From positions 37,777-101,776 of the forward strand of contig LBWB01000012.1 of the NCBI GenBank assembly GCA_000993405.1: 64,000 nt of DNA. Direction: 5' to 3'. The notes under the pieces are model-generated. The model had not been told where the DNA came from and made no database searches. It saw only the letters and a program-made list of their open reading frames with translations. The position numbers were made by a program, and so were the translations under genes. This DNA comes from Candidatus Woesebacteria bacterium GW2011_GWB1_39_12 (GTDB taxonomy: Bacteria; Patescibacteriota; Microgenomatia; UBA8517). This document shows positions 8,219 to 20,819 of the stretch, in pieces; within the stretch, counting starts at the first letter, position 1; each line of letters opens with the position of its first letter.

Positions 8219-8731
8219 ATGAAAAAACTGTCCAAAAGAACTTCAAGAAATATTATTTATGCTTTCATCGACAGCCAAAACCTCAATTTGGGAGTTCAAT
8301 CGCAAGGCTGGAGGCTGGATTTTGCACGCTTCCGAATTTATCTCAAAGACAAATATCATGTACAGAAAGCCTATCTTTTTATCGGTTATATACCAAAAAA
8401 TAGAAAACTTTATGATTTTCTTGATAAAGCAGGTTATAAGTTAATTTATAAACCTGTTTTGGAATCGAAAAGGCCTAAAGTTAAAACAAAGGGAAACGTT
8501 GATGCAGAACTTGTGCTCCATACCATGATTGAGTTCCCTAGATACGACAAAGCTATTATTGTAAGTGGTGATGGAGATTTCTACTGTATTATTGAATATT
8601 TGGATAAGAAAAGAAAACTTGAGAAGGTTATTGTTCCAAACAAAGCAAGTTTTTCAAGTTTACTAAGAAAGTTTAGAAAATATGTTGTATACGTTAGGGA
8701 TTTTAGGGCGAAGGTTGAAAGAAAGAAGTAA
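8219..8731 (+). CDS. NYN/LabA-like (PIN-fold) domain protein
   Basis: FIDSQNL ... NVDAELVLH ... IIVSGDGDF pattern typical of NYN/LabA (DUF88). Confidence 0.65.
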   Translation: MKKLSKRTSRNIIYAFIDSQNLNLGVQSQGWRLDFARFRIYLKDKYHVQKAYLFIGYIPKNRKLYDFLDKAGYKLIYKPVLESKRPKVKTKGNVDAELVLHTMIEFPRYDKAIIVSGDGDFYCIIEYLDKKRKLEKVIVPNKASFSSLLRKFRKYVVYVRDFRAKVERKK

Positions 8732-8885: not shown

Positions 8886-11627
8886 ATGAGCAAAGAGGAA
8901 ACCAAACAAAAAATCCAAGAGTTGGTCGATAAATATGAGAAAGCAAAACTTTCTCGTTCAATTTCTAAATATACAGAGGAAGAAACAAAAAAAGACTTTA
9001 TACTTCCATTATTTCAAGCTTTAGGCTGGAATATTTTTGATAAAAACGAGGTTAGTGCAGAAGAATCACAGTCGGGAGGACGAGTTGATTTTGGTTTTTA
9101 TTTTAAGGGCAGACTCAAATTTTATCTTGAGGCAAAATCTTTACGAACTGATCTTAATAGGGAAGAATTTGCTAATCAAGCCATCAAATATTCTTGGAAT
9201 AAGGGCGCAACCTGGGCAATTTTGACAGATTTCGAGGGCTTGAAAGTTTTCAACGCTCAAATTATCGATAGAAAACTTACGGACAAGCTTTATTTTGAAA
9301 TACTTTCAAACCAATATGTTGAAAGGTTTGATCAGCTTTGGTTACTCTCCAAAGGTGCTTTCGAAGAAAATTTAATTGATAAAGAAGCTGAAAAAGTCGG
9401 TAAAAAAATTCAAAGAGTTTCGGTAGGAATATCACTATATAAAGATTTAACCTTGTGCAGAGATATCTTAACCGACAAGCTTGGAAAAATGAATCCTGGG
9501 ATAGATAGTGAATTGTTAGACGAGGGTGTTCAGAAATTACTGGATAGACTTATATTTATAAGAGTTGCAGAAGATCGGGGAATAGAGCCACCAACATTAA
9601 TTCCTCTTATTCGTGCGTGGAAAAATAGCAAAAACCCAAACGAAATTCCTCTTTATAAGTCGATGGTTTCAAAGTTTAGAGAGCTAGATGAAACTTACAA
9701 TTCGAACCTTTTCACTAAACACCCATTGGAAGATTGGGAAGATTGGAGCAATATAACTGAACAAGTTGTAAAAATTCTCCAAGGAAAGCCGGGCTATTAC
9801 GAATATGACTTCAAAGCTATTCCCTCGGATGTTTTAGGAAGCGTTTATGAAAATTATCTAGGCTATAGACTTTCAAAATCCAAAAAAGGACTCACTCTCA
9901 GTAAAGACGCTAAAAAGAGAAAAGAACACGGAATCTACTATACTCCAGATTATATTGTTGACTATATTGTTAAAAATGCACTTAAACCGGTTCTGGACAA
10001 ATGTAATTCAGTAGCAGAGTTAAAGAAGATTAAGGTTTTAGATCCCGCTTGTGGTTCAGGCTCCTTTTTAATTAAAGCGATGGATTTAATTTACAAAAAA
10101 TATGAAGAATTTGGCAATCGAGGAGGGACATATACTAAATTAGCCATCCTGTTAGACAATATTTATGGTGTTGACCTTGATCCACAGGCAGTTGAAATAG
10201 CCAGGTTAAATCTTTTACTTAATATTCTTGAAGAAAAAATAAAACTTCCTTTACTTGATAAAAACATTAAAAACGGCAATTCTCTTATTTCAGGAACAGA
10301 TGAAGAGCTTAAAAGATATTTTGGAGAAAACTTCAGAGATAAAAAACCATTCAATTGGCAAGAAGAATTTCCGGAAGTATTCAAACAAGGTGGTTTTGAC
10401 GTAATTATAGGAAATCCGCCATATATAAGTTTTTATTCGAGGGAATCCCACTTAGACCAATATATACAAGATGTACAGTTTCTTACAGACAAATATGAGT
10501 TAACTCAAATATATTCTGACAGAAGACTAAATACCGTTATGTTTTTTATTGAAAGGTCTCTGCAGATACTGAGAGCTCATGGGAACTTGGGTTTTGTGAT
10601 AGATGCAAACTTTTTGGAAAAACCTTTCAGGGCACTTAGGTCATGGTTAGTGGAAAAGAAGTTCGTAGTTAAAATTTCACAAAAGTTTTCTGCTTTTAAC
10701 GAAGTGGCTAGCGATCAAAATCTTCTGTTTGTTAAAAAATCTAAGTCAGAGCTTCCTTTTGAAGTATTAAGTTTTGATGGAAATGTCGGAAACTTTACGA
10801 ACTCCAAAATCAAAGTTCTTTCTGAAAAGTTCAAAGAGGATGTGGTGAATCTAAATCCAAAGAAAATTAATCTTTATAAAGTTGGTATATTACCACTTAA
10901 GGAATTGGCGCTGGTTTCGACGGGTGTACAGATCGGAATAGGTGGAACAAGGGCATATGACGGACAAAACATTGAAAAATTGTTTTATTCTGAATCTAAA
11001 AAATCGGAGAAACATTTTGAAAATATATCGCTGAATCCAAAAGATTTCTTTCAATATTGTCCACCCAAAACAAAGAATTACCTGAATTTGGATGAAAAAT
11101 TAGCGTCTAAAATAAATAGAAACGTAAAAAAATGTAACATTGCAGTTACGAAAGCAAAACCATTTATAAACAAGGAAAAAATTTTTGTCAGACAATCTTC
11201 TTCATCGATTGTTGCAACTGTAGGTCAGCCAAGGCAAATTTCAGAGTATTCTGCCTTTATGATAAGACCTTTCCAGAAGCACGATACTCATTTCATTCTG
11301 GCAATTCTAAATTCTAAACCAATGACCTTATATGCTAAAGAGGAAAATGTAATTTTAATGGGTAATAAAAAACAACCACAAATCAGGCTAAAGGGTCTGA
11401 AAAAACTACCTTTTCCAGTTGTTGGTGTTAACCCAAAGAGGTCTTTGGCTAGTAAAGCACGGGTTATGTTACATCTCAACAATAAGTTGTTAAAAGTACA
11501 AGAAAACTCAGAAAAATGGAATTATATAAAATCAGAAATCGAGAAAACTGATAATAAAATTGATGAAGAAGTTTACAAACTCTACAACCTCACGGCTAAA
11601 GAAATTGAAATTGTGGAGAAAAGTTGA
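8886..11627 (+). CDS. MmeI-family Type IIL/IIG restriction-modification enzyme (fused PD-ExK nuclease, gamma-class N6-adenine methyltransferase and target-recognition domain)
   Basis: 913 aa. The N-terminal MmeI-like nuclease domain has VDFGFY...YLEAKS (D...EXK). It carries SAM motif I (VLDPACGSGSFL) and motif IV (IIGNPPYI), plus a long C-terminal TRD-like region. Confidence 0.7.
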   Translation: MSKEETKQKIQELVDKYEKAKLSRSISKYTEEETKKDFILPLFQALGWNIFDKNEVSAEESQSGGRVDFGFYFKGRLKFYLEAKSLRTDLNREEFANQAIKYSWNKGATWAILTDFEGLKVFNAQIIDRKLTDKLYFEILSNQYVERFDQLWLLSKGAFEENLIDKEAEKVGKKIQRVSVGISLYKDLTLCRDILTDKLGKMNPGIDSELLDEGVQKLLDRLIFIRVAEDRGIEPPTLIPLIRAWKNSKNPNEIPLYKSMVSKFRELDETYNSNLFTKHPLEDWEDWSNITEQVVKILQGKPGYYEYDFKAIPSDVLGSVYENYLGYRLSKSKKGLTLSKDAKKRKEHGIYYTPDYIVDYIVKNALKPVLDKCNSVAELKKIKVLDPACGSGSFLIKAMDLIYKKYEEFGNRGGTYTKLAILLDNIYGVDLDPQAVEIARLNLLLNILEEKIKLPLLDKNIKNGNSLISGTDEELKRYFGENFRDKKPFNWQEEFPEVFKQGGFDVIIGNPPYISFYSRESHLDQYIQDVQFLTDKYELTQIYSDRRLNTVMFFIERSLQILRAHGNLGFVIDANFLEKPFRALRSWLVEKKFVVKISQKFSAFNEVASDQNLLFVKKSKSELPFEVLSFDGNVGNFTNSKIKVLSEKFKEDVVNLNPKKINLYKVGILPLKELALVSTGVQIGIGGTRAYDGQNIEKLFYSESKKSEKHFENISLNPKDFFQYCPPKTKNYLNLDEKLASKINRNVKKCNIAVTKAKPFINKEKIFVRQSSSSIVATVGQPRQISEYSAFMIRPFQKHDTHFILAILNSKPMTLYAKEENVILMGNKKQPQIRLKGLKKLPFPVVGVNPKRSLASKARVMLHLNNKLLKVQENSEKWNYIKSEIEKTDNKIDEEVYKLYNLTAKEIEIVEKS

Positions 11628-11648: not shown

Positions 11649-11677
11649 TTGACAAATTCCATAGCTGGGTATATAAC
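11649..11677 (+). promoter_or_regulatory. sigma70-like promoter TTGACA-17nt-TATAAC, 10 nt upstream of the ATG at 11688
   Basis: Consensus -35, a 17-nt spacer and a near-consensus -10. The very short leader implies a near-leaderless mRNA. Confidence 0.5.
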
Positions 11678-11687
11678 TTTGTTTAAT

Positions 11688-12194
11688 ATGATAAAGGATT
11701 TAAACTCGTTACTTTCGCTACAGGAGGTTTCTGAACTATTAGGAGTCCACCCTGAAACTTTAAGACGTTGGGACAGAGAGGACAAGTTATCAGCAATTAA
11801 AGTCAACGAGAGAGGAGATAGGAGATATCGATATGGAGATGTTATGAGAATTCTAGGAAGTTACGGAACAATAGAATACAAGGGATTTAAAATAACTCAC
11901 TACAGTCCAGGTTTTGAAATGTTTCCAGATAGGTTTGGTTCCATAGCTAAATTTGTAGTAAGTAATAATTTGGTAGTTGCAGGTTTTGCTTTTGCAGTTG
12001 CGGGTCTGAAACTTTTTGCAGAGCCAGATGTTAAATCGCAAGATCTAGAAAATCTAGCATTGTCAAAAATCAAGTATTTTATAAACCAAAAGCTAATAAA
12101 GAATTTAAAGGAATATACTTTCGAGTTTGAATCTAGGGAACAAGGATTTATACAAATTAAAAATCCAGACTGGTGGACTAAAGGAAGTTTATGA
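11688..12194 (+). CDS. HTH (excisionase/MerR-like HTH_17) DNA-binding protein with a C-terminal hydrophobic segment
   Basis: LSLQEVSELLGVHPETLRRWDRE helix-turn-helix. The ATG at 11688 is preferred over the TTG at 11649 used by the ORF track. Its stop overlaps the next gene's start (ATGA). Confidence 0.55.
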   Translation: MIKDLNSLLSLQEVSELLGVHPETLRRWDREDKLSAIKVNERGDRRYRYGDVMRILGSYGTIEYKGFKITHYSPGFEMFPDRFGSIAKFVVSNNLVVAGFAFAVAGLKLFAEPDVKSQDLENLALSKIKYFINQKLIKNLKEYTFEFESREQGFIQIKNPDWWTKGSL

Positions 12195-13114
12195 GCGAGA
12201 AGATATATGTTAGTAAAATTACGCAAGACACAAAGAACAGCGTTAAAGATTGTCTTTTGAGTTTATTTTACCGAAAGAACGATTTGATTCAATTTTTAAA
12301 AAGTTGCGGTTCCACATCTTCTGATTTGATTAATATAGGAGAATTAATGACAAAGTCCCGAATTGTTGACACTTATTTTGGCAACCTCGAACAGAGGTTA
12401 GACAATGGAACAGCTCAGTATCATAGTTTGATGAGACAAATTATTGATTGGGACGATTTTGACTCTTATTGGTTTCGGAATGGCAGTCTAGATGCAGGTT
12501 ATGCAAAAAGTAGGATTGGGCAATTGAACAAGCTTTTAGGTAAGAAAACAAAAATAGAAGAGGAGAGACTGAAATTACGCGAGAAAGAACAAGAATACGA
12601 AAAAATAAAAGCTAGGTCTCAGCTAATAACTGATTTAAGAGATAAATTTTATCGAATGTGTCAGGATAGCGATCAGACGCAAAAACGAGGTTACGAGTTA
12701 GAAGATTTACTAAATAAAATGTTTAGTTTTTTCGGCTTTGACGTTTTCAAACCATTTAAACTAAAAGGGGAGCAAATAGATGGTTCCTTTAAACACGATG
12801 GAGATAACTATATATTTGAGTCGAAATGGCAGGATAAAGAAAGTGCAGTCAATGATCTTTATGCTTTTGCTTACAAAATAGAGAGCAATTCTTTGTATCC
12901 TAGGGGTGTGTTTTTTTCTATAAATGGATACTCTGAAGATGCATTAAATAGAATAACTTACAACAAAAAGGCTCAACTAATTTTATTTGATGCCGTCGAT
13001 ATAATCGCCGTTCTCGAGGAACGTATATCATTAGTTAGTCTTCTGGAAGAAAAAATTAGATTTGCACAAACACATTCAAGAATCTATGTTAATGCAAATG
13101 ATATTCTTAAATGA
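12191..13114 (+). CDS. Mrr-like restriction endonuclease-fold (PD-(D/E)xK) protein with an N-terminal domain of unknown function
   Basis: The C-terminal region FGFDVF...GEQIDGSF...IFESKWQDK...SINGYSEDA matches the Mrr_cat D...(D/E)xK pattern. It is translationally coupled to the HTH gene. Confidence 0.55.
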   Translation: MSEKIYVSKITQDTKNSVKDCLLSLFYRKNDLIQFLKSCGSTSSDLINIGELMTKSRIVDTYFGNLEQRLDNGTAQYHSLMRQIIDWDDFDSYWFRNGSLDAGYAKSRIGQLNKLLGKKTKIEEERLKLREKEQEYEKIKARSQLITDLRDKFYRMCQDSDQTQKRGYELEDLLNKMFSFFGFDVFKPFKLKGEQIDGSFKHDGDNYIFESKWQDKESAVNDLYAFAYKIESNSLYPRGVFFSINGYSEDALNRITYNKKAQLILFDAVDIIAVLEERISLVSLLEEKIRFAQTHSRIYVNANDILK

Positions 13115-13230
13115 AAACTAATTGGATGATAAAAATTGAGAAATTTATAAATTAATGACATCTCCCGGGCGGGATGAATTGACGCCTCGGGATTTTTCTT
13201 TCCTCCTTCATCAAGACTTCGAAGGACAAG

Positions 13231-13244
13231 CAAATTTGACCCCA
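13231..13244 (+). repeat. cassette-boundary motif copy a (CAAATTTGACCCCA, short form)
   Basis: First member of an 18-copy motif family. It lies 117 nt after the Mrr-like gene stop. Confidence 0.8.
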
Positions 13245-13322: not shown

Positions 13323-13610
13323 ATGGACGACGTTAAGAAAATGTTTAGAGTAATTGTTAACGGGCAGAGTGTAATAAAGCAAGAGTTGCTTTCGGAAATT
13401 AAGAAAGTAGACAAGAGCTTGAGCGGCAGAATTGATAGTTTAACTACAGAAATGAAAGACGGGTTTAAGAAAGTAAACAAACGTTTAGATTTAATAGGGA
13501 AATCAGTCGCCTTTCTTGAGGATGATACACCGACTAGAGAAGAACATGATAAATTAGAAAAACGCGTTTCTAAAGTAGAAAGAAAACTTCAAATTCAAGC
13601 ACCTGTTTAA
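13323..13610 (+). CDS. small coiled-coil protein, paralog copy 1 (96 aa from MDDVKKMF)
   Basis: ~90% identical to the ORF at 20532..20819, and the upstream 90 nt are also conserved. Confidence 0.55.
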   Translation: MDDVKKMFRVIVNGQSVIKQELLSEIKKVDKSLSGRIDSLTTEMKDGFKKVNKRLDLIGKSVAFLEDDTPTREEHDKLEKRVSKVERKLQIQAPV

Positions 13611-14576: not shown

Positions 14577-14590
14577 CAAATTTGACCCCA
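14577..14590 (+). repeat. motif copy d (CAAATTTGACCCCA)
   Basis: Short form. It begins a ~300-bp segment that is duplicated at 18126..18440. Confidence 0.8.
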
Positions 14591-14673
14591 CAATTTTTTA
14601 GAGCGTTTTTTTCTACAGACTCCGCAACCCCTGTTTTGTTGACAAGCCCTGAAATAAGTTTTAAAGTTTTACC

Positions 14674-14871
14674 ATGAACGACGAAAGGGTAAGAGAGCAC
14701 CGCATCCCTCAAAACACAATTGTTGATAGGGGAGGGTATATCGGCCCAGGAGGCAGAATCAACGCCGAGCTTGTGCGGCCACCTGTTGCAGCATCGCCCA
14801 CAACAGAGATTCCACCCGCAGTTTCCCCGCAATCAACTGGAACCGAAAACCCACCACCTACAACGTATTAG
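14674..14871 (+). CDS. small Pro-rich protein, paralog copy 1 (65 aa, MNDERVREHRIP...)
   Basis: Paralog at 18221..18445 differs by an in-frame 27-nt indel and a few substitutions. The frame is conserved on the + strand, and TTGACA...TTAAAG lies upstream. Confidence 0.5.
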   Translation: MNDERVREHRIPQNTIVDRGGYIGPGGRINAELVRPPVAASPTTEIPPAVSPQSTGTENPPPTTY

Positions 14872-14883
14872 TAGTAATATTTT

Positions 14884-14951
14884 CTTCAAATCCTTCGGCA
14901 TGTTATAACAGTGAGCGTTGTCGAACTGCTCAGGACTATAGTTTGACCCCA
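14884..14951 (+). repeat. motif copy e, long form (CTTCAAAT-CCTTCGGCATGTTATAACAGTGAGCGTTGTCGAACTGCTCAGGACTATAG-TTTGACCCCA)
   Basis: 68 nt, starting 13 nt after the stop of the previous ORF. Confidence 0.8.
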
Positions 14952-15644: not shown

Positions 15645-16328
15645 TTGCAAATGTATAAACTATCTCCTTCCGACTTTAAGTATTTGTATGAGGACTGTAA
15701 GCATTGCTATTACCAAAAAGTTCGGGGGGTAATTAAAGAGCTCCCCTCGATTGGTATGCCGGGGGTATTTACGAAGATGAATACTCTTTTGCAAAACACA
15801 ATTATCGGCATGGATTTACGGGAAATTAATTCCAAACTTCCCGCAGGTAAAATCGAGGTTAAAGAAGGTTTTTTGAAATCCAAAACAATTCCTCCAACCA
15901 ACGATTGCTTTATAGGAGGAAGATTTGATATTGCCTCACGCCTTGACGACGGAACTTATTCAGTCATAGATTTTAAAATTACTGATCCTACAGAAGACAA
16001 AATCCAAAAGTTCTTTCCGCAATTGCATGCTTACAAATTTGCCCTGGAAAATCCGGCGTTTGGTGAGGCGAAAAAGGTGAGCAAAATGGGAGTTATCGCA
16101 ATTAATCCTGAAGAGATATCTTTTCCTGGCGAGAAAGTAGTCTTTACGGCAAAGCCCCTATTGTTTGAGATCGAGGAAGACATGGATAGGTTTTTTGCAT
16201 TTATTTCTGAAGTATCTAAATTGGTGAATGGACCTGAACCGCCGGAAAACTCTGACAATTGCAAATGGTGTTATTATCGACTTTGTACGACAAAGGTTAA
16301 AGATAACCAAGAAGACATTCCTTTTTAA
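15645..16328 (+). CDS. Cas4-like / RecB-family PD-(D/E)xK nuclease with an Fe-S Cys cluster (standalone, no CRISPR locus)
   Basis: N-terminal SPSDFKYLYEDCKHCYY (Cas4-like YxxC motif), core GGRFDI...SVIDFKI (D...DxK), and C-terminal CKWCYYRLC (CxxCx4C). Confidence 0.6.
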   Translation: MQMYKLSPSDFKYLYEDCKHCYYQKVRGVIKELPSIGMPGVFTKMNTLLQNTIIGMDLREINSKLPAGKIEVKEGFLKSKTIPPTNDCFIGGRFDIASRLDDGTYSVIDFKITDPTEDKIQKFFPQLHAYKFALENPAFGEAKKVSKMGVIAINPEEISFPGEKVVFTAKPLLFEIEEDMDRFFAFISEVSKLVNGPEPPENSDNCKWCYYRLCTTKVKDNQEDIPF

Positions 16329-18120: not shown

Positions 18121-18139
18121 CTTCAAATTTGACCCTGCA
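18121..18139 (+). repeat. motif copy i (CTTCAAATTTGACCCTGCA)
   Basis: Start of the duplicated segment (copy 2). Confidence 0.8.
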
Positions 18140-18220
18140 ATTTTTTAGAGCGTTTTTTTCTACAAACTCCGCAACCCCTGTTTTGTTGACAAGCCCTGAA
18201 ATAAGTTTTAAAGTTTTACA

Positions 18221-18445
18221 ATGAACGACGAAAGGGTAGGAGAGCACCGCATTCCTAAAAACACAATTGTTGATAGGGGAGGGTATATCGGCGCAGGAGG
18301 CAGAATCAACGCCGAGCTTGTGCGACCACCCGAAGTCGTTCCTCCTATAAATCCGCCTGTCGCAGCATCGCTCACAACAGAGACGCCACCCGCTGTTCCC
18401 CCGCAACTATCTGGAAACGAAAACCCACCACTCACAACGTATTAG
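18221..18445 (+). CDS. small Pro-rich protein, paralog copy 2 (74 aa)
   Basis: See 14674..14871. A 9-aa insertion (EVVPPINPP) preserves the frame. Confidence 0.5.
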   Translation: MNDERVGEHRIPKNTIVDRGGYIGAGGRINAELVRPPEVVPPINPPVAASLTTETPPAVPPQLSGNENPPLTTY

Positions 18446-18457
18446 TAGTAATATTTT

Positions 18458-18551
18458 CTTCAAATCCTTCGGCAAGTTATAACAGTGAGCGTTGTCGAAC
18501 TGCTCAGGACTATAGTCCTTCGGTTTTACTCAGGATCACGATTCTTCGACT
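18458..18551 (+). repeat. motif copy j, long form variant (CTTCAAAT-CCTTCGGCAAGTTATAACAGTGAGCGTTGTCGAACTGCTCAGGACTATAG-TCCTTCGG...), with a tail shared with copy f
   Basis: Starts 13 nt after the stop. It is ~95% identical to 15545..15625 and lacks the terminal TTTGACCCCA. Confidence 0.75.
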
Positions 18552-20531: not shown

Positions 20532-20819
20532 ATGGACGACGTTAAGAAAATGTTTAGAGTAATTGTTAACGGGCAGAGTGCAATAAAGCAAGAGTTGCTT
20601 TCGGAAATTAAGAAAGTAGACAAGAGCTTGAGCGGCAGAATTGATAGTTTAACTACAGAAATGAAAGAAGGGTTTAAGAAAGTAAACAAACATCTTGATA
20701 TGATTGGAAAGAGTGTTGCTTTTCTTGAAGACGACACACCGACCTGGGAGGAACATGATGAATTAGAAAAGCGGGTTACTAAAGTTGAGAAAAAACTTCA
20801 GATTCAAGCACATATTTAA
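20532..20819 (+). CDS. small coiled-coil protein, paralog copy 2
   Basis: See 13323..13610. Confidence 0.55.
   Translation: MDDVKKMFRVIVNGQSAIKQELLSEIKKVDKSLSGRIDSLTTEMKEGFKKVNKHLDMIGKSVAFLEDDTPTWEEHDELEKRVTKVEKKLQIQAHI

What the first reader, a model, noticed from the sequence alone, without database searches (positions are those of the whole stretch)
11688..13114. Overlapping gene pair encoding an HTH protein and an Mrr-like PD-(D/E)xK nuclease, a candidate two-gene defence module
The pair is translationally coupled (ATGA overlap at 12191) and sits immediately downstream of the MmeI-like RM gene. The first gene encodes an excisionase/MerR-type HTH protein with a C-terminal hydrophobic segment. 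The second encodes a 307-aa protein with an N-terminal ~190-aa region of unknown function and a C-terminal Mrr-type nuclease fold. A strong sigma70-like promoter drives the pair. Sensor/regulator-plus-nuclease pairs of this kind are typical of uncharacterised antiphage or abortive-infection systems.
Basis: partly seen in the sequence, partly recalled or inferred. Interest (0 to 1): 0.65.

Follow-up and report, generated by a model that had tools for sequence, protein, structure and literature searches.

The report
Regulator-led Mrr-type nuclease defence operon
The two overlapping genes are real and defence-related, but they are not a fixed two-part system: a stand-alone restriction-type nuclease has been placed behind a small DNA-binding regulator that, in related bacteria, heads many different anti-phage gene cassettes.

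Summary
Gene A (11688-12194) and gene B (12191-13114) overlap by ATGA, 60 nt downstream of a type IIG restriction-modification gene, in a Candidatus Woesebacteria (CPR) genome.

Gene B has no profile hit itself, but 24 of 34 full-length homologues match Pfam Mrr_cat. The AlphaFold model (pLDDT 89.6) shows a helical N-domain, a long helix and an alpha-beta-beta-beta-alpha-beta nuclease core. The E171/D197/E210/K212 motif is conserved.

Gene A is a BldC/Xis-like winged HTH plus a globular C-terminal domain with no Pfam family or convincing PDB match. The "hydrophobic segment" is that domain's core.

The "two-gene module" reading is only partly supported. Profile searches found no A-family gene in 84 B loci and no B-family gene in 82 A loci. 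B homologues sit alone inside type I RM operons or beside Shedu, OLD, Qat, Abi and CRISPR genes. Short A homologues lead variable cargo: type III RM, Shedu, OLD, SEC-C.

These A genes share a conserved promoter, TTGACA-N17-TATAAG, with a tandem TGTATAA repeat ending 2-3 nt before the ATG.

Best reading: an autoregulated leader-regulator gene driving a solitary Mrr-family restriction nuclease. This is a new variant of known kinds and of moderate interest.

The parts
8886..11627 (+). Neighbouring type IIG (fused endonuclease-methyltransferase) RM gene, 913 aa. It is context for the operon; no terminator separates it from gene A.
   Evidence: Pfam Eco57I 1.4e-32, N6_Mtase, MmeI_Mtase, TaqI_C, HSDR_N. 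PADLOC REase_MTase_IIG 1.8e-97.
11649..11677 (+). Candidate promoter of the A-B operon: -35 TTGACA (11649-11654), 17-nt spacer, -10 TATAAC (11672-11677). The ATG follows 10 nt after the -10, so the mRNA is leaderless or nearly so.
   Evidence: Read from the sequence. The same TTGACA-N17-TATAAG layout lies at a fixed distance from the ATG of homologous HTH genes. The tool scan does not list it because the last -10 base is C.
11670..11686 (+). Tandem direct repeat TATATAA-N3-TGTTTAA, 10-bp period, overlapping the -10 and the expected transcription start. It is the candidate operator for the HTH protein.
   Evidence: Only perfect match to TRTWTAA-N3-TRTWTAA in the 64-kb window. A perfect 7-bp repeat at 10-bp spacing occurs at this position in 7 of 16 homologous loci, each reached by 0.2-1.1% of shuffles. 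The window copy alone is not significant.
11688..12194 (+). Gene A, 168 aa. Residues 8-58 (11709-11861) form a BldC/Xis-like MerR-type winged HTH. Residues about 60-165 (11865-12182) form a globular alpha/beta domain with no Pfam family.
12181..12194 (+). Coupling junction: Shine-Dalgarno-like AAGGAAG (12181-12187) inside gene A, then ATGA (12191-12194) where the stop of A overlaps the start of B.
   Evidence: Read from the sequence. Overlaps of 4-8 nt or gaps of 3-8 nt between HTH gene and cargo recur in L090, L091, L093, L094, L098, L173, L176 and L177.
12191..13114 (+). Gene B, 307 aa. Helical N-domain at residues about 1-100 (12191-12490). Long helix at residues 102-158 (12494-12664). Mrr_cat-type PD-(D/E)xK nuclease core at residues 164-267 (12680-12991), plus C-terminal helices. 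Predicted catalytic residues: E171 (12701), D197 (12779), E210 (12818), K212 (12824).
   Evidence: 66 homologues, 34 aligned in A1; E194, D197, E210 and W213 are invariant, E171 and K212 at least 90% conserved. 24/34 match PF04471. AF2 pLDDT 89.6 with H-EEE-H-E-H-E topology. Foldseek hits to the FokI cleavage domain, R.BspD6I small subunit, Avs4 and EndoMS. The N-domain profile finds 362 clusters, none longer than about 360 aa, with the domain at or near the N-terminus.
13163..13204 (+). Candidate intrinsic terminator of the operon: a G+C-rich 9-bp stem with one bulge and an 11-nt loop, followed by ATTTTTCTTTCC.
   Evidence: RNA fold of 13105-13215. Weak evidence: the z-score of the whole stretch is -0.9, and the terminator scan, which allows loops of 3-8 only, lists nothing.

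Best explanation
A bicistronic defence operon assembled from two independently mobile parts.

1. Transcription. A promoter (TTGACA-17-TATAAC) starts a nearly leaderless mRNA at gene A. Gene B is translated by coupling (Shine-Dalgarno-like run inside A, ATGA overlap).

2. Gene A (inferred function).
- It encodes a BldC/Xis-like winged-HTH protein with an uncharacterised C-terminal alpha/beta domain.
- I infer that it binds the tandem TRTWTAA repeats over the -10 and start site, as BldC does on direct repeats.
- That would autoregulate the operon and keep the nuclease level low and bounded, like RM controller proteins, BrxR/CapW or RptR.
- The C-domain would provide oligomerisation or signal input.

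3. Gene B (inferred function).
- It encodes a self-sufficient, probably dimeric Mrr-family PD-(D/E)xK endonuclease.
- Its helical N-domain would select the target. The most likely role is a type IV-like or otherwise non-self-directed restriction activity that complements the neighbouring type IIG RM enzyme.

Shown here: gene structure, folds, catalytic motif, conserved promoter and repeat, defence-island contexts, and lack of co-occurrence of the two families. Inferred: DNA binding to the repeats, repression, nuclease activity and its target.
For: Gene structure and overlap.

Gene B is an Mrr-type nuclease:
- 24/34 homologues hit PF04471.
- The fold fits.
- The E-D-ExK residues are conserved.

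Gene B works alone:
- It sits inside type I RM operons in L001, L003 and L005, with HsdM, HsdS and HsdR confirmed by Pfam.
- L002 and L004 are similar.
- L167 reads HsdM C-terminus, SduA, then B.
- Other neighbours: OLD (L082); type III Res, OLD and bSEFIR (L006); QatA (L008); AbiLi/AbiLii (L010); type I-C Cas (L012); AbiEii and QatABCD on a Delftia plasmid.
- None of these loci has an A-family gene.

Gene A is a cassette leader. Short-form homologues directly precede:
- type III Mod+Res (L093, L094, L173, L174);
- Shedu SduA (L085, L090, L176, L177);
- OLD (L101);
- a SEC-C protein (L098);
- a Hypoth_Ymh cassette (L086/L087);
- a resolvase (L119);
- unknown proteins.

Conserved promoter plus 10-bp-period direct repeat in front of these genes.

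Closest structure is BldC, which binds direct repeats as head-to-tail multimers (PMC5859096).
Against: - No experiment supports DNA binding, repression or cleavage.
- The window's own repeat is degenerate (2 mismatches between copies; 31% of shuffles do as well).
- The -10 lacks the canonical final T.
- The second repeat copy could be a feature of leaderless starts in this genome rather than an operator. The next gene (ATG 13323) also has a TTGACA-N17-TTTAAT promoter close to its ATG.
- The N-domain of B is near-neutral in charge by my own residue count. It has no recognisable DNA-reader fold, so a type IV-like target is a guess.
- The sample of HTH loci is about 18 evaluable cases without a formal background model.
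Confidence: 0.6

Rival explanations
1. True two-component defence system: the HTH protein senses infection and directly activates or licenses the nuclease through protein-protein contact.
Against: The two families never co-occur elsewhere: 0 of 84 B loci and 0 of 82 A loci by HMM search. The closest homologues of A (70-75% identical) precede other cargo. The closest homologues of B (71-77%) lie in type I RM operons without an A-family gene.
Confidence: 0.1
2. Type II toxin-antitoxin pair: A is a DNA-binding antitoxin that neutralises the nuclease toxin B and autorepresses the operon.
For: Gene order, small upstream HTH gene, 4-nt overlap, and a putative operator at the promoter.
Against: B-family genes are kept without any adjacent A-family gene in all 84 sampled loci, so B is not intrinsically lethal. 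A-family genes also precede type III methyltransferase genes, which are not toxins.
Confidence: 0.07
3. A is an excisionase or recombination directionality factor of a mobile element that carries defence cargo, and B is just cargo.
Against: Most loci show no recombinase next to the HTH gene. No recombinase-like ORF was noticed among window ORFs 7-18 kb, though only five were Pfam-scanned. The gene keeps a fixed operon-leader position with a conserved promoter, and tight coupling to the cargo in many loci. The extra conserved C-terminal domain is not a feature of the small Xis/AlpA/RdfS excisionase structures matched here.
Confidence: 0.13
4. A is a controller for the upstream RM gene rather than for B. 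RM genes lie directly upstream in the window, L085 and L178.
For: A type IIG, type ISP or MmeI-family RM gene lies immediately upstream in 3 loci.
Against: The conserved promoter points downstream. The three upstream RM genes are different kinds (type IIG, type ISP, MmeI-family), and window versus L085 share only a 70-aa methyltransferase match. Most loci have no RM gene upstream. No second copy of the repeat motif lies near the RM gene start.
Confidence: 0.05

Closest known systems
Mrr / Mrr_cat (PF04471) type IV restriction endonucleases
   Same: C-terminal PD-(D/E)xK core with the GxxxE ... (G)xxD(G) ... ExK motifs. Most family members match the Pfam model. Single-polypeptide enzyme found in restriction and defence loci.
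   Different: No Mrr_N winged-helix reader. Instead there is a roughly 100-aa all-helical domain and a 57-residue helix with no Pfam family and no convincing PDB match. ExK replaces the QxK I recall for E. coli Mrr. Modification dependence is untested.
Defence genes embedded in type I RM operons (PrrC in the prr locus, from my own knowledge; TgvAB in Vibrio VPI-2, bioRxiv 10.1101/2024.04.04.588119; DarTG2 in the RptR island, PMC12255303)
   Same: B homologues lie between hsdM, hsdS and hsdR in L001-L005 and L167, as those embedded systems do.
   Different: Different protein families: GmrSD-like, anticodon nuclease and DarTG versus an Mrr-type nuclease. In this window the partner RM is type IIG, and the gene has its own regulator-led promoter.
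Defence-operon regulators: RM controller (C) proteins, BrxR/CapW (WYL), RptR (PMC9122601, PMC12255303)
   Same: A small DNA-binding protein encoded at the head of defence genes, with repeats in its own promoter. It is associated with many different defence systems.
   Different: The DNA-binding fold is MerR/BldC/Xis-type, not Xre or WYL-wHTH. It carries a distinct C-terminal domain. All named members come from CPR bacteria. The candidate operator is a tandem direct repeat over the -10. Regulation is not demonstrated.
BldC of Streptomyces (PDB 6amk, 6ama; PMC5859096)
   Different: BldC is a 68-residue developmental regulator without a second domain and is unrelated to defence. NCBIfam HTH_BldC scores far below its cut-off here (27.6 against 77 bits).
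MAD1 of the methylation-associated defence system (PADLOC mad1, NCBIfam NF047737)
   Same: The HTH of gene A matches PADLOC mad1 at 8.9e-10. Both are small HTH proteins in methyltransferase-linked defence loci.
   Different: The match covers only the roughly 50-aa HTH. The NCBIfam MAD1 score is 13.4 against a cut-off of 80. No MADS gene set is present.

Membership tests
Mrr_cat / PD-(D/E)xK nuclease (PF04471) | The protein itself matches the Pfam HMM | tested here: not met
   No Pfam hit for the window protein, even at E 0.1.
Mrr_cat / PD-(D/E)xK nuclease (PF04471) | Clear homologues match the HMM (transitive homology) | tested here: met
   24 of 34 full-length homologues (30-77% identical) match PF04471, best E 1.2e-9. 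Precomputed PF04471 hits appear on many relatives.
Mrr_cat / PD-(D/E)xK nuclease (PF04471) | alpha-beta-beta-beta-alpha-beta core fold | tested here: met
   AF2 elements H164-180, E184-192, E195-202, E205-212, H216-232, E238-243. Foldseek probability 1.0 to the FokI cleavage domain and R.BspD6I small subunit, 0.96 to the Avs4 chain and EndoMS; E-values only about 1e-2.
Mrr_cat / PD-(D/E)xK nuclease (PF04471) | Catalytic acidic residues and lysine (E ... D ... E/QxK) | tested here: met
   D197 and E210 invariant; E171 and K212 at least 90% conserved across 34 sequences.
Type IV (modification-dependent) restriction enzyme, Mrr proper | N-terminal Mrr_N-type winged-helix DNA reader | tested here: not met
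   No Pfam hit in residues 1-160. The model there is all-helical.
Type IV (modification-dependent) restriction enzyme, Mrr proper | Cleavage depends on modified DNA | not testable with these tools
   Needs in vitro cleavage of modified versus unmodified DNA.
Known anti-phage systems in PADLOC-DB v2 | HMM match of the effector to a catalogued system protein | tested here: not met
   Gene B: no PADLOC hit at E 0.1. Gene A: only the HTH matches mad1. DefenseFinder could not be run.
Two-gene system or type II toxin-antitoxin pair | The two gene families co-occur across genomes | tested here: not met
   tblastn and HMM searches: 0 A-family genes in 84 B loci and 0 B-family genes in 82 A loci.
BldC-like MerR-type HTH | MerR-type winged HTH without the long coiled-coil dimerisation helix | tested here: met
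BldC-like MerR-type HTH | Binds tandem direct repeats cooperatively | not testable with these tools
   Tandem repeats with a 10-bp period exist at the promoter. Binding is untested.
Classical MerR activators | Coiled-coil dimer plus effector domain, acting on promoters with a 19-20 bp spacer and a palindromic operator | tested here: not met
   The spacer is 17 nt in the window and most homologous loci (16-18 overall). The repeats are direct, not inverted. There is no coiled-coil helix.
RM controller (C) proteins | Xre/lambda cI-type HTH of about 80 aa | tested here: not met
   The fold is MerR/Xis-type. The Xre-like Pfam hit is only E 0.029, below its cut-off.
RM controller (C) proteins | Encoded directly upstream of and co-transcribed with the endonuclease gene | tested here: met
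   ATGA overlap with gene B. The same position holds relative to type III RM, Shedu and OLD genes in homologous loci.
Excisionase / recombination directionality factor | Partner integrase or recombinase and att sites nearby | tested here: inconclusive
   No recombinase-like ORF was noticed among window ORFs 7-18 kb; five of them were Pfam-scanned and the rest only read. Recombinases lie near some homologues (L119, L090). att sites were not searched.

The most novel reading that the evidence does not exclude
The BldC-like HTH plus novel C-domain family, with its conserved TTGACA-N17-TGTATAAG-N3-TATAAG promoter and operator, is a portable 'defence-cassette leader' specific to CPR/Patescibacteria.
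- It would be one regulator module, possibly an infection-responsive switch through its C-domain.
- It has been recombined in front of at least six unrelated effector types: Mrr-like, Shedu, type III RM, OLD, SLFN/AlbA_2 and SEC-C.
- If so, the gene and its promoter are a marker for finding new defence genes in CPR genomes. Candidates are the unannotated cargo proteins of 177, 185, 215, 221, 223, 267 and 838 aa in L087, L091, L178, L097, L117 and L094.
- It would also give a first handle on how these reduced genomes control toxic immunity genes.
Probability: 0.35. Interest if true: 0.65.

Novelty: new variant of a known kind. Interest (0 to 1): 0.45.

Why it matters
- CPR/Patescibacteria have small genomes, few characterised defence systems and almost no known regulation. 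A regulator family with a recognisable promoter that heads many defence cassettes would give a guilt-by-association probe for new immunity genes in that radiation. It would add a third structural class (MerR/BldC-type) to the known defence regulators: C proteins, WYL BrxR/CapW, and RptR.
- The nuclease family is widespread: at least 470 genome loci and 362 clusters at 50% identity. It is plasmid-borne in some bacteria, annotated only as "restriction endonuclease", and has an uncharacterised N-terminal domain. It recurs inside type I RM operons, so it is a reasonable candidate for a new target-recognition module in type IV-like restriction.
- Neither point overturns current ideas. Both extend known themes.

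Tried and rejected
- Direct profile and sequence searches with gene B (Pfam, NCBIfam, PHROGs, PADLOC, PDB sequences, and the A1 profile against PDB) gave nothing. Only homologue-level scanning worked.
- The AFDB Foldseek library was unavailable, so the N-domain of B was not compared with predicted structures. The top 50 Foldseek PDB hits gave no convincing match beyond the nuclease core.
- The promoter and terminator scan listed neither the A promoter nor any terminator. The promoter was established by comparison between loci instead. The terminator remains weak.
- A search for the A+B pairing in other genomes found none: tblastn, HMM search, and context of the closest homologues.
- I looked for synteny that would show a shared insertion hotspot. 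Only the PDDEXK_1 gene recurs, in L101 and L178.
- The phage collection has no B relative.
- No second copy of the repeat motif lies near the RM gene.
- The membrane-anchor reading of the hydrophobic segment was rejected from the AF2 model.
- The classical MerR mechanism was rejected on spacer length and repeat orientation.
- RptR was checked as a possible homologue. The paper mentions neither MerR nor excisionase, so I treated it as an analogue only; no sequence or fold comparison was made.
Full report
**Origin and observation**

The window comes from Candidatus Woesebacteria bacterium GW2011_GWB1_39_12. Gene B is 100% identical to UT24_C0012G0050.

Two ORFs lie at 11688-12194 and 12191-13114 on the + strand. 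ATG 12191 overlaps TGA 12192-12194, and AAGGAAG lies 4 nt upstream of the ATG. The ORF list also offers a TTG start at 11649 for gene A. Alignment with 32 homologues places the N-terminus at ATG 11688, and the TTG is part of the -35 hexamer.

The gene upstream (8886-11627) is a fused type IIG restriction-modification enzyme. It matches Pfam Eco57I, N6_Mtase, MmeI_Mtase and TaqI_C, and PADLOC REase_MTase_IIG at 1.8e-97. A NYN/LabA-like gene precedes it.

**Gene B**

The protein itself has no hit in Pfam, NCBIfam, PHROGs, PADLOC or PDB sequences. It has 66 database homologues, about 35 of them full length.

- In an alignment of 34 full-length homologues, G193, E194, D197, G198, E210 and W213 are invariant. 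E171 and K212 are at least 90% conserved. Together they give the Mrr-type pattern GYELE ... GEQIDG ... ExKW.
- Scanned one by one, 24 of the 34 match Pfam Mrr_cat (PF04471), best E 1.2e-9.
- The AF2 model (pLDDT 89.6) has three parts:
  - a five-helix N-domain (residues 12-96);
  - one long helix (102-158);
  - an alpha-beta-beta-beta-alpha-beta-alpha-beta core (164-267).
- Foldseek against the PDB puts the FokI cleavage domain and the R.BspD6I small subunit first (probability 1.0). Avs4 (8dgf_B) and EndoMS follow at 0.96, with modest E-values near 1e-2. Nothing convincing matches the N-domain.
- A profile of the N-domain alone finds 362 clusters (50% identity) in 1.8 billion representatives. 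The domain lies at or near the N-terminus of proteins no longer than about 360 aa. The architecture is therefore fixed, and the domain is not shared with other effectors.

**Where the B family lives**

A genome scan found 470 loci encoding relatives. They span Patescibacteria, Bacillota, Proteobacteria, Cyanobacteria and archaea. Full-length copies also occur on conjugative plasmids and are annotated "restriction endonuclease". None occurs in phage records.

| Locus | Neighbours of the B homologue |
|---|---|
| L001, L005 | hsdM - B - hsdS - hsdR |
| L003 | hsdM - hsdS - B - hsdR |
| L002, L004 | fragments of the same type I RM layout |
| L167 (77% identical) | HsdM C-terminus (judged from the translated sequence), Shedu SduA, B |
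| L082 | OLD-family ATPase-nuclease |
| L006 | type III Res, OLD and bSEFIR |
| L008 | QatA |
| L010 | AbiLi/AbiLii |
| L012 | type I-C Cas5/Cas7 |
| L169 (Delftia plasmid) | AbiEii and QatABCD |
| L081 | metabolic genes |

None of these loci encodes an A-family protein (tblastn; HMM search of all ORFs). B is thus a solitary, horizontally mobile resident of defence islands. It is neither a housekeeping gene nor half of a fixed pair.

**Gene A**

Residues 8-56 match MerR, MerR_1 and HTH_17 above the Pfam cut-offs. The AF2 model (pLDDT 89.7, pTM 0.73) shows a winged HTH followed by a compact beta-rich domain. The hydrophobic GFAFAVAGLKLFA stretch forms strand 97-105 and helix 106-111 of that domain, in blocks with pLDDT 86-97. 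It is a domain core, not a membrane anchor.

- No Pfam family covers the C-domain in any homologue.
- The family has a short form (about 166 aa, as here) and a long form (about 292 aa).
- There is also a split form. In L173 a 67-aa HTH gene and a 115-aa C-domain gene overlap and precede type III Mod and Res.
- All members that carry an organism name are CPR bacteria: Patescibacteria, Curtissbacteria, WWE3, Saccharimonadales and Gottesmanbacteria.

**What follows A-family genes**

About 18 short-form loci were long enough to judge. In each, the gene directly downstream on the same strand (overlap of 4-8 nt up to a gap of about 100 nt) was as follows.

| Cargo directly downstream | Loci |
|---|---|
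| Type III Mod+Res | L093; L094 (after one unknown gene); L173; L174 |
| Shedu SduA | L085, L090, L177; L176 (after an SLFN/AlbA_2 gene) |
| OLD-family nuclease | L101 |
| SEC-C protein | L098 |
| Hypoth_Ymh cassette | L086/L087 |
| Resolvase | L119 |
| Unknown protein followed by a PDDEXK_1 gene | L178 |
| Proteins with no family | L091, L097, L117 |
| Mrr-like nuclease | this window only |

At least 10 of about 18 loci carry recognised restriction or defence genes. Three loci (the window, L085 and L178) also have an RM gene immediately upstream. These are three different kinds of RM enzyme, and the window and L085 genes share only a 70-aa methyltransferase match.

**Conserved cis-element**

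Aligning the 60-66 nt upstream of these HTH genes shows a shared layout. TTGACA lies near -41, then a 17-nt spacer, TGTATAAG, three bases, a second (G/A)TATAAG, and TT before the ATG. Four further loci fetched later (L174, L176, L177, L178) have the same layout.

- A perfect 7-bp direct repeat at exactly 10-bp spacing occurs in 7 of 16 loci. In each, only 0.2-1.1% of shuffles reach it.
- The window has TTGACA-17-TATAAC and a degenerate repeat, TATATAA-N3-TGTTTAA. Its second copy equals both copies in L085, whose HTH protein is about 70% identical.
- The motif occurs once in the 64-kb window.
- The -10 ends 10 nt before the ATG, so the transcript should be leaderless or nearly so.

The generic scan does not list the site because the -10 ends in C. 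A weak hairpin plus T-run at 13163-13204 may end the operon. The next gene has its own TTGACA-N17-TTTAAT promoter.

**Mechanism proposed**

Shown here:
- a promoter-led, coupled A-B operon;
- an intact Mrr-type active site in B;
- a BldC-like HTH in A;
- a tandem repeat over the -10 and start site;
- independent mobility of the two families.

Inferred:
- A binds the repeats head-to-tail, as BldC does on direct repeats (PMC5859096), and autoregulates the operon.
- This limits expression of a potentially harmful nuclease, in the manner of RM C proteins, BrxR/CapW (PMC9122601) and RptR (PMC12255303).
- The C-domain mediates oligomerisation or receives a signal.
- B acts alone, probably as a dimer through the long helix. 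It would be a restriction nuclease whose N-domain chooses the target.
- It complements the adjacent type IIG enzyme, as the type IV-like TgvAB complements the type I system that surrounds it (bioRxiv 10.1101/2024.04.04.588119).

I give this reading 0.6.

Rival readings:

| Rival | Probability | Main evidence against |
|---|---|---|
| True sensor-effector pair | 0.10 | No co-occurrence of the two families |
| Toxin-antitoxin pair | 0.07 | No co-occurrence; A also precedes type III methyltransferase genes |
| Excisionase with cargo | 0.13 | Fixed leader position, conserved promoter, usually no adjacent recombinase |
| Controller of the upstream RM gene | 0.05 | Promoter points downstream; upstream RM genes are of different kinds |

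**Comparison and novelty**

B is a new member of the Mrr_cat nuclease superfamily with an uncharacterised N-terminal module. It fails the test for Mrr proper because it has no Mrr_N reader. It is absent from PADLOC v2.

A resembles defence regulators in position and in promoter repeats, but it belongs to none of their families. It is not Xre-type, not WYL, and not RptR as far as the paper describes that protein. It is not a classical MerR activator either, given the 17-nt spacer, direct repeats and lack of a coiled coil.

The combination seen here appears to be a one-off assembly of two mobile parts. Overall it is a new variant of known kinds. Interest is moderate (0.45). The main value is the regulator family as a possible marker for defence cassettes in CPR genomes.

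Noticed in passing
window 13231-13243, about 14148, about 14939, 15490, 18124, 18986, 19638, 19968; larger copies 14577-14783 / 18124-18330 and 14779-14942 / 18353-18516: A family of intergenic repeats sharing the core CAAATTTGACCCC(A). Two copies of about 370 nt are 91-96% identical, and there are four copies of a 69-nt unit. No Rfam family matches. The region just downstream of the operon is rich in them. They may be a MITE- or REP-like element, or a shared promoter or terminator module.
   Followed up: partly
window 15645-16328; L101 9181-9855; L178 6191-6859: A 227-aa PDDEXK_1 protein (Pfam family seen on the L178 copy) with a C-terminal CxxC motif has 44-45% identical homologues one or two genes downstream of the HTH gene in two other loci. 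It may be a recurrent companion of these cassettes or a flank of a shared insertion hotspot.
   Followed up: partly
window 13323-13610 and 20532-20816: A 95-aa ORF with only weak coiled-coil-type Pfam hits, just after the operon, is duplicated 7 kb downstream at 89% amino-acid identity. It has its own TTGACA-N17-TTTAAT promoter close to the ATG.
   Followed up: no
L173 3801-4348: A split version of the HTH protein: a 67-aa HTH_17 gene overlaps a 115-aa stand-alone C-domain gene, followed by type III Mod and Res. Stand-alone C-domain proteins of about 105-122 aa are common in CPR metagenomes. One (L171) lies between unannotated genes.
   Followed up: partly
L099, L100, L105-L113, L121-L129: The long (about 292 aa) form of the HTH family has an extra conserved C-terminal domain of about 125 aa. 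It usually faces convergent, recurring neighbour genes instead of leading an operon: 205-208-aa and 191-199-aa proteins, or 440-474-aa plus about 111-aa proteins.
   Followed up: no
L087 7558-11288; L091 1852-2409; L094 7500-8303; L097 6021-6686; L117 1691-2362; L178 5520-6167: Cargo genes directly behind the HTH leader that have no Pfam or PADLOC family on record, apart from the middle L087 gene, which is Hypoth_Ymh. The L087 genes other than the 838-aa one and the L178 gene have no precomputed Pfam hit and were not scanned with PADLOC. By position they are candidates for undescribed defence genes.
   Followed up: no
window 8219-8731: A NYN/LabA-like nuclease gene (Pfam NYN 1.4e-14; PADLOC NYN 1.3e-14) lies just upstream of the type IIG RM gene. 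This extends the apparent defence cluster to about 8.2-13.1 kb.
   Followed up: no
plasmid collection: The C-terminal nuclease half of gene B has relatives of about 290 aa on more than 1,100 Klebsiella plasmid records. In one search such relatives are named 'restriction endonuclease' or 'DUF3644 domain-containing protein', so they form a very common enterobacterial plasmid gene with a different N-terminal half.
   Followed up: no
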